DNA of 64,000 nt from Eledone cirrhosa (GCA_964016885.1 OZ024743.1:204724001-204788000), one strand, 5' to 3'; positions 36,865 through 41,441 are shown, counted from the stretch's first letter. A program made the numbers and translations. Notes: a model not told the origin generated them from the sequence alone.

Positions 36865-37153
36865 ATATATATATATATATATATTTAATATATATATATA
36901 TATATATATATATTTAATATATATATATATATATATATATTTAATATATATATATATATATATATATTTAATATATATATATATATATATATATTTAATA
37001 TATATATATATATATATATGTAGATAAATCTACCAAGAGTTTACGGTAGTGTCCAATCCGTATGAAGAACTCAATGTATTCCGGATATCATGGAAAGAAG
37101 AGATGTAATGAAAAACGACTTTCGGTGAAAGATAAACGGTATACAGAGTCAAG

Positions 37154-37752
37154 ATAAAATATTAAACAAATAATGAATAAACAATTCCTTATATTAAACA
37201 AAAAAAGTTCATTATTTAACGATCGTTTCTAGGATATATATGTGTTATAATTGGTATGCATATTCAACAGATCTATGTACAAAATTATACAAAATTATAC
37301 AAATTATCAAGATTAAATATACATACCAAACACATATATACGCCGTCTTCAGAAATAATGAAGTATATTTATTGATAATAACAACAATTCAAAATTTCAG
37401 TTCAAAATTGACCAATGAAAACACAAAGGGTTAAATGCAGTTCGGTGTGTGTATATACATGTAAAACCCTTACACATATTTTACAAAAATGTATGTATAA
37501 TTTGTATACGCATACTAAAAGGATGGATGCAAATACGAAATTTCAAGGTTAATGTCTCTGTGAGCTTACAATGCGCAGATAAGATACTTATGAAATCAAG
37601 TATATAAATATATTTTTTCATACTCACACATATCAGTACAATCACACATACACGCGCGTATATGCATAAATATACACATAACCACGAACATACAAACACA
37701 CACACACCCCCACTCACATTTATATATGTGGATATAAAATCATAAGCACATG
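37154..37752 (-). repeat. Left 599-bp inverted repeat (putative 3' pseudo-LTR)
   Basis: ATAAAATATTAAACAAATAATG...ATCATAAGCACATG is the reverse complement of 40843-41441. The ORF track gives identical 64-aa and 78-aa translations from both copies. Confidence 0.97.
37208..37362 (-). ncRNA. Type I hammerhead ribozyme fold (mirror copy in the left inverted repeat)
   Basis: The plus strand reads TTCATTATTTAACGATCGTTTC...TCTTCAGAAATAATGAA, the reverse complement of 41233-41387. Confidence 0.82.
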
Positions 37753-37934
37753 GATATTAATTCACTCACATAAAACACTGGCACACACATTTCTAGATCA
37801 AGATACAGAAATTAGGTGGGAGGGGGGGGAGGGGTCAGTATTCAACTGTCTGAGCAAACTGTCTAATATAAATGTATCTATAAATTAAGAAAAATAAAAA
37901 AATAAAACAATAAAATATAATAAATATAATATAA

Positions 37935-38241
37935 TATACATACACATACAGATATATACACATACATACATGTACGCACACATAGAAATATTTACGCATA
38001 CACACATACACACATACATATACAGTCATACACACACATACACTTACACGAACATACACATACACATATATAAAGATATATATATACACACACACACACA
38101 CACGCAACACATACACACATACACATATATATAAAAATAAATAATAAAGATATATATATACACACACACACACACGCAACACATACACACATACACATAT
38201 ATATAAAAATAAATAATAAAGATATATACCTATATATATAT

Positions 38242-38290
<49 letters not shown>

Positions 38291-38691
38291 CACACACATA
38301 CATCTAAATATACATACACATACATACACACATACATGTACATACATGTACATACATATACGCACATCGATATACATATATATATATATACATATATATA
38401 TATACACACACATAGACATGTAGATACATACACACACAACTTACATACACACATATATATATACATGTATATTCATACATAGAATTAGATATATAATCAT
38501 ACATACTTATGCACTTACTTATACTCATATATACAAATACATACGCATCTATATATGCATATATACATAAAAAAAAAACTACAACCTCACCTAACTCAGA
38601 CATACAAATAAAAATAATAATAAAAAGGCATATGTATATACATACACACCCGCATTAATAGAGATATATATATAGAGACACATACATACAC

Positions 38692-38753
<62 letters not shown>

Positions 38754-38756
38754 ACT

Positions 38757-38800
<44 letters not shown>

Positions 38801-39020
38801 GATATCCACACACTCATACCACCATAAATACACATACAAACACCCACATATATATATATATACACACGTATATATATATATACATATATATACACACACA
38901 TAAAAAACAGACATGCACATATATATATACATTAATTACACTTATACATACACATATTATATACACGTACACAACCTCACTTATACATACATACACATAA
39001 GTTATATTATAATAATAAAG

Positions 39021-39075
<55 letters not shown>

Positions 39076-39165
39076 CATACATACATACATATACATACAT
39101 ACATATAAACATATACATACATAAATACACACATACTAATAAAGACATATATTCACACATAGACA

Positions 39166-39211
<46 letters not shown>

Positions 39212-39730
39212 TATATACATATATACACACACACATATACACAGACACATATACACACTCACATATATATATGTGTGTGTGCGCACACACACATATGTAC
39301 ACACACACACACAAATACACATAAACACATACATATGCATACATGCACACACACACACACATATATATCACATAGATACGAAGATAAACATATAAGTAGA
39401 GAGACATACATATATATACAACACACATACACACACATACATACACACGCATATACATATACATATATATATACATATATATATTCCTATATATACATGC
39501 ATACACATATATACACATATATACACATACATACACATATACGTACACACATTCACATACACATACATATATAATGCATATATACACATATATACATACA
39601 TATACACACTCATATATACACACGCAATCTTACATTCATATTTGCATGCGCATATATGTATTTTTATATTTAGATATAAATACCCAAACCTATATAGACA
39701 CCTACCTACATATATATTCATACATAGACG
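37935..39730. repeat. Mixed (CA)/(TA)/(TACA) low-complexity region in the body of the insertion
   Basis: Dense degenerate CA/TA/TACA runs. This region is the source of the CVYI-type ORFs. Confidence 0.92.
38071..38229 (+). repeat. ~73-bp tandem duplication within the insertion body
   Basis: TAAAGATATATA recurs at 38071, 38145 and 38217, with (CA)nCGCAACACATACACACATACACATATATATAAAAATAAATAA between occurrences. Confidence 0.88.
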
Positions 39731-40277
39731 CTTACAAATACAGATGATAATAGTATGGGGGAAAGGGGGGGTTTGGAGAAAGGGGATCAAAGTAAATATA
39801 TGTTTCAAGAAACATAGAAAATTTTCCGTATTTTTATCCAATGTATGTTCTTACATATTTTCAGTGTTAGGAAATACGACAAACAAGAACCAAGGCAAAA
39901 TCTATGCATCTCAAAATAAATAAGTATATCATTAATCATATGTTAACTAAACCAAAGATAGTCAACATATTGATTTCTAAGGTGTAAATTAGTTAGGTTT
40001 ATAATATTTGAAGCAGAATTTTGAAGTCAAACAGTAGTAGATTATTAATTACAGTATAACTAAATTAAAGTTAATAACGTTATGGTATCAATATTAGGAA
40101 ATGAATTTAGTAATAGGGAAAAAAATAAAATAAAGTATTACATCGGTAGTAGAATATAAATTATATGTTAACTAAATTAAAAATTATATACTTATTTCAA
40201 TAGTATATGTTAATTAGGTATACAATACATAAAGCAGATACTGTATTTCATCAATAGCATAATATAATTATATGCAA

Positions 40278-40341
40278 ATAGAAATCAAAATTAATACGCA
40301 TACATATACATATACATACACATACACATATACATACATAT

Positions 40342-40396
<55 letters not shown>

Positions 40397-40457
40397 TACA
40401 TACATACACATACACATACACACACACACATACACATACACATATACATATACATAT
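40278..40457. repeat. (TACA)/(TA)/(CA) compound microsatellite in the insertion body
   Basis: Directly visible simple repeats embedded in AT-rich unique sequence. Confidence 0.85.
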
Positions 40458-40842
40458 CTTTTTCAAAAAAATTGCATAGAATATATTAACTAGGTATATA
40501 TCCAAAACGCATCCCATTCTATGATTACATGACATTCTGCAATTCGTCTGTATAAGGATACTAATTTTAAGCAAATTAAAATAAAATTTTTAGGTTGATT
40601 AAAACTAAAACCAAATAATAAATATATTTCTAAAATGTATATTAATTAGGTCTATAATACTAAAAATTATTTCTCTGTCATTGGATACACGATATTATTT
40701 TGTTATATTTTATCTGTAAAAGAGTTATAATAAAAGGTTTAAATAAATTAAAATTAATCTATAAATTAAATTACTAAGTATATATTAGTAATATTTAAAG
40801 GTTTTTCACAATTTATGATTACATAATATTTTATATTCTCAT

Positions 40843-41441
40843 CATGTGCTTATGATTTTATATCCACATATATAAATGTGAGTGGGGGTGTGTGTGTGTT
40901 TGTATGTTCGTGGTTATGTGTATATTTATGCATATACGCGCGTGTATGTGTGATTGTACTGATATGTGTGAGTATGAAAAAATATATTTATATACTTGAT
41001 TTCATAAGTATCTTATCTGCGCATTGTAAGCTCACAGAGACATTAACCTTGAAATTTCGTATTTGCATCCATCCTTTTAGTATGCGTATACAAATTATAC
41101 ATACATTTTTGTAAAATATGTGTAAGGGTTTTACATGTATATACACACACCGAACTGCATTTAACCCTTTGTGTTTTCATTGGTCAATTTTGAACTGAAA
41201 TTTTGAATTGTTGTTATTATCAATAAATATACTTCATTATTTCTGAAGACGGCGTATATATGTGTTTGGTATGTATATTTAATCTTGATAATTTGTATAA
41301 TTTTGTATAATTTTGTACATAGATCTGTTGAATATGCATACCAATTATAACACATATATATCCTAGAAACGATCGTTAAATAATGAACTTTTTTTGTTTA
41401 ATATAAGGAATTGTTTATTCATTATTTGTTTAATATTTTAT
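40843..41441 (+). repeat. Right 599-bp inverted repeat (putative inverted 5' pseudo-LTR)
   Basis: CATGTGCTTATGATTTTAT...CATTATTTGTTTAATATTTTAT followed by (AT)n. Same length as the left arm; no differences noticed. Confidence 0.97.
41233..41387 (+). ncRNA. Type I hammerhead ribozyme fold with extended stem II
   Basis: Stem I TTCATTATTT (41233-42) pairs with AAATAATGAA (41378-87). Core CTGAAGA at 41243-49, stem II at 41250-41365, GAAA at 41366-69, stem III AC-GATC-GT. NUH triplet GTT, predicted cut after 41377. The pair closing stem II is a non-canonical C.A. Confidence 0.82.

What the first reader, a model, noticed from the sequence alone, without database searches (positions are those of the whole stretch)
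37020..41441. 4.4-kb Penelope-like insertion with inverted pseudo-LTRs and no coding capacity, inside a macrosatellite unit
Seen: the insertion is in only 1 of 9 visible (TA)n blocks. It has apparently identical 599-bp inverted arms, a 3090-bp non-coding body, and hammerheads pointing outward on both sides. Known: PLEs often have an inverted 5'-truncated pseudo-LTR, lack fixed target-site duplications, and carry hammerheads in the pseudo-LTR. Inference: this is a recent insertion, younger than the array expansion. It could be a PLE with a very long microsatellite-rich 3' region truncated before its ORF, or a non-autonomous retrozyme-like derivative. It could easily be mis-annotated as a TIR DNA transposon.
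Basis: partly seen in the sequence, partly recalled or inferred. Interest (0 to 1): 0.8.

Follow-up and report, generated by a model that had tools for sequence, protein, structure and literature searches.

The report
Non-coding Penelope-like insertion, long-stem hammerhead
This is a recent copy of an abundant Penelope-type jumping element that carries no gene here, built head-to-head as such elements usually are, but with an unusually long end extension, an unusually long hammerhead-ribozyme stem and several kilobases of simple-repeat cargo.

Summary
A 4,422-bp insertion (37020-41441) sits in the (AT)n block of 1 of 9 macrosatellite units. It has 599-bp arms that are 100% inverted-identical, a 3,090-bp body with no coding signal, and a hammerhead-like motif in each arm pointing outward. 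Public reads orient it: the main copy runs on the minus strand (40842 to 37020), the right arm is a 5'-truncated inverted second copy, and the extra 134 bp on the left is family sequence, a one-sided tail. This is the textbook insertion architecture of endonuclease-bearing Penelope-like elements, not a TIR transposon. The motif is most like the published hammerheads of (TA)n-targeting Hydra-clade elements (CUGAAGA core, one extra base each side of stem II, GUU site). It differs from described elements in a 116-nt stem II region, a 134-nt tail (30-40 bp is usual) and 3.5 kb of non-coding sequence upstream that carries seven (TA)12-22 tracts, i.e. new targets. No RT or endonuclease was found, no genome was available, and cleavage is untested, so clade and autonomy stay open. 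Verdict: a new variant of a known kind, of moderate interest.

The parts
37020..40842 (-). Main copy, 3,823 bp, 3' end at 37020; non-coding; 5' end at the inversion junction
   Evidence: orientation from depth gradient and a diverged contig bridging 37752/37753 (X1 record 7)
40843..41441 (+). Inverted, 5'-truncated second copy (599 bp), head-to-head with the main copy, lacking the tail
   Evidence: 100% complementary to 37154-37752; junction
37020..37153 (-). 134-bp one-sided 3' tail; ends in a 6-bp terminal hairpin (37020-37033) next to (AT)n
   Evidence: family sequence: depth as high as the hammerhead region in X1, and an organism-B contig covers 37021-37181 with 6 differences
37208..37362 (-). 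Type I hammerhead-like motif: stem I 10 bp, core CUGAAGA 37352-37346, 116-nt stem II region 37345-37230 (44 predicted pairs), GAAA 37229-37226, 2-bp stem III with palindromic GAUC loop, predicted cut after U37218 (GUU)
   Evidence: activity not tested
41233..41387 (+). Identical hammerhead-like motif in the inverted copy; predicted cut after 41377
37931..39730 (.). 1.8-kb compound (TA)n/(CA)n microsatellite block bracketed by G-tracts at 37822 and 39757; six of the seven (TA)12-22 tracts lie here
39921..40297 (.). Three degenerate ~113-bp tandem units (66-76% alike in the core)
40291..40440 (.). Second microsatellite block with (TA)19
36830..37019 (.). Target: (AT)n block of macrosatellite unit 6, left part; continues in phase at 41442

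Best explanation
A young insertion made in trans by the RT plus GIY-YIG endonuclease of a (TA)n-targeting Penelope-like element (PLE), copying an RNA that has the PLE 3' signals (hammerhead plus downstream priming region) but no ORF within the 3.8 kb copied. Shown: the anatomy, the orientation, that tail and proximal body are multi-copy family sequence, and the absence of coding signal. Inferred, by analogy to the Anolis Poseidon element PAc (PMC11167929: both target strands are cut and extended; reverse transcription starts at two internal sites whose distance is the tail): both strands of the (AT)n target were nicked; one primed at the far start site (198 nt after the predicted ribozyme cut) and copied 3,823 nt, the other primed at the near site (64 nt after the cut) and copied 599 nt; the two cDNAs were joined head-to-head. 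Inferred: the hammerhead is weak as a monomer (2-bp stem III, palindromic loop) and needs a dimer or protein. Within this reading I put a non-autonomous family (ORF replaced by microsatellite-rich or captured DNA) at about 2:1 over an autonomous element cut short of its ORF.
For: Asymmetric ends, 134 bp extra on one side only. Left inner junction is natural: X1 record 7 spans 37689-37828 with 16 differences and summed depth is level across it (18,414 against 19,663); so the right junction is the inversion point. X1 summed depth is 109,000-911,000 over 37021-37392 and 6,000-77,000 over 37393-37930, as 5' truncation of a minus-strand retroelement would give. The short end looks recurrent: an organism-B contig (depth 106) starts exactly at 37154 and binned depth steps 43 to 129 there; another starts 6 letters outside 37021 (X4 records 9, 10). 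Both arms share alleles that are rare in the family (37537: 146 of 149 and 250 of 254 X22 reads differ; also 37562-37575), so both came from one donor. Of the 40 best-supported variant sites shown (188 not shown), 6 lie in the motif: 4 unpaired, 2 keep pairing, none in the core or stems I and III. Reads from other copies join 37243-37245 to 37330-37332, replacing 84-86 nt of the top of stem II and keeping its base. Published Hydra-clade hammerheads: GUU site in 10 of 26 rows, CUGAAGA core in 4 of 26, extra base on each side of stem II in most, (TA)n target. Architecture as described in PMC8557442 and PMC3846280.
Against: No RT or GIY-YIG sequence found, and no partner element identified. Rfam gives no hammerhead hit. 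No two-sided compensatory change seen; a 1-nt deletion at 37328 in stem II is common (192 of 492 X22 reads); the base of stem II has a C-C mismatch or bulge rather than a clean G10.1-C11.1 next to G12. The tail is 3-4 times the 30-40 bp described. Summed contig depth is no copy number, likeness cut-off can mimic a gradient, the gradient is weaker in organism B, and X22 is RAD-biased. Nothing was laid on 37931-41441, so the distal body and the inversion junction have no read support.
Confidence: 0.8

Rival explanations
1. Non-autonomous TIR DNA transposon (MITE or foldback type) with 599-bp TIRs inserted at TA.
For: Perfect long inverted repeats, TA-rich target, no ORF.
Against: Ends are not symmetric: 134 bp of family sequence lies outside the left arm; depth falls about 5-fold to 30-fold inside the arm, at about 37362-37423, instead of being level over 599 bp; a hammerhead-like motif lies in the arm.
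Confidence: 0.05
2. Non-LTR retrozyme (small hammerhead circle) monomer that picked up flanking DNA.
For: Type I hammerhead with palindromic loop III; the 3'-terminal ~370 bp is far more abundant than the rest; monomers are common in retrozyme families.
Against: No tandem units here; no joint going back from the tail end to the hammerhead start among the 15 of 17 joints shown; head-to-head inversion and one-sided tail are PLE marks.
Confidence: 0.06
3. Helitron/Helentron-like non-autonomous element (terminal hairpin, microsatellite cargo, no TSD) with a later local inversion. The Helitron features are recalled, not from a call.
For: 6-bp hairpin at the exact 3' end, insertion in AT, simple repeats inside.
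Against: The end reads CTAC, not CTRR, and the hairpin is terminal rather than subterminal; it does not explain the hammerhead motif, the second recurrent end at 37154 or the inverted copy.
Confidence: 0.04
4. The inverted arm is an assembly or fold-back read artefact.
For: Arms are 100% identical; the locus lies in a macrosatellite; no spanning read was seen.
Against: The host unit resumes in phase after 41441 (14 differences in 5,988 sites from the neighbour unit), and the arm stops at a position where an organism-B contig also starts; a fold-back chimera would not return to the host sequence.
Confidence: 0.05

Closest known systems
Hydra-clade PLEs (Craig et al. 2021, PMC8557442)
   Same: (TA)n target; hammerhead near the 3' end with CUGAAGA or CUGAUGA core, an extra base on each side of stem II, often a GUU site; one Repbase entry carries a 5'-truncated inverted copy.
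   Different: Hydra elements are generally under 3 kb with an RT-EN ORF ending a few hundred bases before the hammerhead, and stem II plus loop of about 25 nt or less; here no ORF in 3,480 nt upstream and a 116-nt stem II region.
Penelope/Poseidon and Neptune insertion architecture (PMC3846280, PMC11167929, PMC4209133)
   Same: Head-to-head inverted 5'-truncated copy, one-sided tail, AT-rich target, hammerhead with an extra base after A9 and a palindromic helix III; non-coding DNA captured next to pLTRs is reported in Adineta vaga.
   Different: Tail 134 nt against 30-40 bp (31 bp in A. vaga Pen2a); no direct pLTR pair; no ORF start in the tail was recognisable.
Naiad PLEs (PMC8557442)
   Same: (TA)n target, inverted copy, very high abundance; 8 families noted with hammerhead half-cores 35-50 nt apart.
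   Different: Naiads lack complete hammerheads; here both core halves and stems I-III are present; 4 of 4 short motifs from this element were absent from the held part of that supplement.
Non-LTR retrozymes (PMC7229834; bioRxiv 10.64898/2026.07.22.740005)
   Same: Non-coding, type I hammerhead, thought to be mobilised by PLEs.
   Different: Retrozymes are small tandem units (51-972 bp consensus); this is a 3.8-kb single copy with an inverted partner.
SSR-carrying Penelope elements of penaeid shrimp (PMC7878876)
   Same: Recently moved Penelope copies carry microsatellites and are linked to long (AT)n expansion.
   Different: Those copies hold an RT gene; no hammerhead or tail analysis in the passages seen. 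The host of this window was not identified.

Membership tests
EN+ Penelope-like element (autonomous) | ORF with telomerase-like RT and GIY-YIG endonuclease | tested here: not met
   No such ORF or remnant in this copy; the microsatellite block 37934-39699 was covered only in part, by ORF listing and one ORF
EN+ Penelope-like element (insertion type) | Inverted 5'-truncated copy head-to-head at the 5' end | tested here: met
EN+ Penelope-like element (insertion type) | One-sided tail of 30-40 bp | tested here: inconclusive
   One-sided extension present and of family origin, but 134 bp
EN+ Penelope-like element (insertion type) | Frequent 5' truncation across copies | tested here: inconclusive
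   Depth gradient fits, but individual copies could not be listed without a genome
EN+ Penelope-like element (insertion type) | Direct pseudo-LTRs from partial tandems | tested here: not met
   No direct repeat of the arm in this copy; optional in truncated copies; other copies not visible
Type I hammerhead of PLEs | CUGANGA and GAAA core with stems I-III in order | tested here: met
   1 of 2,000 shuffles
Type I hammerhead of PLEs | Extra base after A9; short palindromic helix III | tested here: met
   C37345; 2-bp stem with GAUC loop
Type I hammerhead of PLEs | G10.1-C11.1 pair directly before G12 | tested here: inconclusive
   Either G-C with a 2-nt insert before G12, or C/A extra bases followed by G-U, G-C and a C-C mismatch
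Type I hammerhead of PLEs | Self-cleavage | not testable with these tools
   needs in vitro assay
Hydra or Neptune clade | RT phylogeny and endonuclease Zn-finger pattern | not testable with these tools
   no protein in this copy, no genome
Hydra or Neptune clade | (TA)n target | tested here: met
   one locus only
Non-LTR retrozyme | Tandem units of under 1 kb each with a hammerhead | tested here: not met
MITE / TIR DNA transposon | Symmetric termini with TIRs at the very ends | tested here: not met
   134 bp of family sequence outside the left arm
MITE / TIR DNA transposon | Constant TSD | tested here: inconclusive
   unreadable in (AT)n

The most novel reading that the evidence does not exclude
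A very abundant non-autonomous PLE family in which a ~350-nt hammerhead-plus-long-tail cassette is the whole cis signal, drags kilobases of microsatellite DNA, and deposits about seven fresh (TA)n targets per long insertion: a feed-forward loop between a (TA)n-targeting retroelement and microsatellite expansion, with a catalytically active hammerhead whose stem II length varies between copies from a few tens to over 110 nt and so escapes standard descriptors.
Probability: 0.3. Interest if true: 0.65.

Novelty: new variant of a known kind. Interest (0 to 1): 0.42.

Why it matters
Such copies look like MITEs to automatic annotators and their hammerheads are missed by Rfam, so a large repeat family can be misfiled. 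The locus reads as a natural snapshot of the two-strand, two-start-site priming shown in vitro for PAc, with start sites 134 nt apart instead of 30-40, which makes the tail rule testable in another PLE lineage. If the long, microsatellite-laden form is what moves, it offers a concrete mechanism for SSR-rich genomes. A long-stem hammerhead would also be a lead for the Naiad 'half-core' cases. None of this is established by one locus.

Tried and rejected
No whole genome is held, so BLAST of copies and a search for the autonomous partner were impossible. Rfam at E <= 5: 145 matches, all miRNA or snoRNA models below gathering score on simple repeats. Pattern scans: metagenome contigs gave 1 locus, L001, a chance match inside a bacterial ORF; viral contigs 0 and 0; genome contigs 0 and 0. 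Sequencing runs: no RNA holder listed. Tail as the start of an ORF: the minus-strand frame through the tail has one TGA that is kept in the organism-B contig (its 6 differences are all elsewhere), and no Pfam hit: rejected for now. Tail as a copy of the body's 5' end: no significant local alignment. Tail fold is weak (z = -1.8, 12 of 200 shuffles as stable). Microhomology at the inversion junction: 0 nt against the arm's natural upstream; a CAT-CAT repeat at the junction may hide 3 nt but cannot be judged without the longer donor. No second hammerhead in the body or in the macrosatellite's own palindrome. Earlier-findings look-ups by sequence, place and one word set returned nothing.

Full report
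Observation. The window is a macrosatellite of 6.0-6.6-kb units; nine unit anchors were found and only the interval starting at 36810 is longer, at 10,505 bp. The extra 4,422 bp (37020-41441) interrupts an (AT)n tract; with it removed the unit differs from its left neighbour at 14 of 5,988 aligned sites and from the others at 22-42, and shares five diagnostic sites with units 5 and 7, so the insertion is younger than, or about as young as, the last duplications. The arms 37154-37752 and 40843-41441 are identical inverted repeats of 599 nt, 3,090 nt apart. The left end carries 134 bp more than the right. A target-site duplication cannot be read: the flanks are (AT)11 and (AT)9, against (AT)15 in unit 7. 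Of the body, 1,930 of 3,090 bases are tandem repeat, including seven (TA)12-22 tracts. The long open frames are microsatellite translations; 12 short ORFs and 12 frames read through stops gave no Pfam hit at cut-off.

Hammerhead. Rfam reports none. A scan allowing a long stem II finds exactly two hits in 64 kb, one per arm, 3' ends outward: stem I of 10 bp, CUGAAGA, a 116-nt stem II region with 44 predicted pairs, GAAA, a 2-bp stem III with a palindromic loop, and a GUU site. One of 2,000 shuffles of 37020-37752 gave such a core with a 10-bp stem I; the region folds at z = -6.3. The hammerhead topology is 3.2 kcal/mol above the minimum-energy fold. An extra base after A9 and a small palindromic helix III are marks of PLE hammerheads (PMC4209133). 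In the Hydra-clade table of PMC8557442, 10 of 26 rows cut at GUU, 4 of 26 have the CUGAAGA core, and most have an extra base on each side of stem II; stem II there is short. The base of stem II here is imperfect, and activity is untested.

Other copies. No genome was held. Twenty runs from 16 studies hold part of 37021-37930; three hold over half its words, all organism A. Four runs were laid on that stretch. In X1, 2,706 contigs laid; summed depth is 109,000-911,000 over 37021-37392 and 6,000-77,000 beyond. The tool warns that this is no copy number, but the family is clearly abundant and weighted to the 37020 end, as for a 5'-truncated minus-strand retroelement. A diverged contig bridges 37752/37753 with 64 and 76 letters on the two sides, so the left junction is natural and the right one is the inversion point. 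The tail is family sequence: an organism-B contig covers 37021-37181 with 6 differences (28 letters on the arm side, just under the tool's 31-letter bridging rule). A second organism-B contig starts exactly at 37154, the end of the short arm, which suggests, but does not prove, a recurrent second 3' end. It matches the window from 37185 to 37247, so the right half of the core and the GUU site are shared. Of 40 variant sites shown (188 not shown), six fall in the motif; four are unpaired and two keep pairing through one-sided changes; a 1-nt deletion in stem II is also common. Four joints in X22 (12-38 reads each, 3-4 starts) replace 84-86 nt at the top of stem II, so its length varies between copies. 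Both arms share alleles rare in the family, so they came from one donor. Organism D gave only depth-2 contigs and supports nothing. Nothing was laid on 37931-41441.

Mechanism. PLE insertions commonly carry an inverted 5'-truncated copy at the 5' end and a 30-40-bp tail on one side (PMC8557442; PMC3846280). The purified Anolis element PAc cuts and extends both target strands, prefers AT-rich DNA, and starts reverse transcription at two internal sites downstream of the hammerhead whose spacing is the tail; its hammerhead needs protein and is dispensable for insertion in vitro (PMC11167929). Read this way, the two ends here are start sites 198 and 64 nt after the predicted cut, giving cDNAs of 3,823 and 599 nt joined head-to-head. 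The anatomy is shown; the enzyme, the priming and the cleavage are inferred. The enzyme must come in trans or from a part of the donor that was not copied. Described Hydra elements are generally under 3 kb in all and Naiads 3.4-4.4 kb, so a 3.5-kb non-coding stretch favours a non-autonomous form; capture of non-coding DNA beside pLTRs is known from A. vaga, and SSR-carrying Penelope copies from shrimp (PMC7878876).

Comparison and novelty. It works like an endonuclease-bearing PLE insertion. It is not filed in a clade, since the defining ORF is absent from this copy. It fails the symmetric-end test for a MITE and the tandem-unit test for a retrozyme. Eight literature searches listed no paper describing a PLE with a tail over 100 nt or a stem II over 100 nt; the library is limited, Repbase and Dfam were not available, and this family may already be catalogued there. 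What I saw of the papers: PMC8557442 parts 1-3 of 10, passages, and supplement parts 1, 2, 52, 53 of 59 plus two searches (file cut when stored); bioRxiv 10.64898/2026.07.22.740005 parts 1-3 of 5, supplements not seen; PMC4209133 and PMC11167929 parts 1-2 of 4, supplements not seen, and their hammerhead alignments may hold closer matches; passages only of PMC3846280, PMC7229834, PMC3124438, PMC12602865 and PMC7878876. Helitron features are recalled.

Verdict. Real, young, PLE-type (confidence 0.8); a new variant of a known kind.

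Noticed in passing
window 36157-36830 (and the matching place in all nine units): Each macrosatellite unit holds a 464-bp head-to-head palindrome (36199-36662, 89.5% self-complementary) with a one-sided ~168-bp extension, flanked by (TA)n on both sides: the same outline as an inverted PLE insertion with no body, but older and amplified with the array. No hammerhead core was found in it.
   Followed up: partly
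whole window: The 6.0-6.6-kb unit is built of oppositely oriented 11-12-bp minisatellite arrays, a (TTATT)n run and a 65-bp doublet; units differ at 14-49 sites in about 6 kb, with units 5-7 closest. It may derive from a foldback-type element.
   Followed up: partly
window 37406-37464: Many RAD reads match only this ~60-bp piece and run on into other sequence on both sides (566-1,299 reads per loose end), so it is shared with another repeat or subfamily.
   Followed up: no
window 37178-37183: A 9-nt insertion is carried by 506 of 979 X22 reads, and 771 reads have unrelated sequence before 37183 (agreement 0.34): possibly a further 3' end or a sister family with another tail.
   Followed up: no
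window 39921-40297: Three degenerate ~113-bp tandem units of unknown origin inside the body.
   Followed up: partly
window 37154-41441: Read-through transcription from the array would give a 599-bp perfect hairpin, a likely source of small RNAs against the whole family (inference).
   Followed up: no
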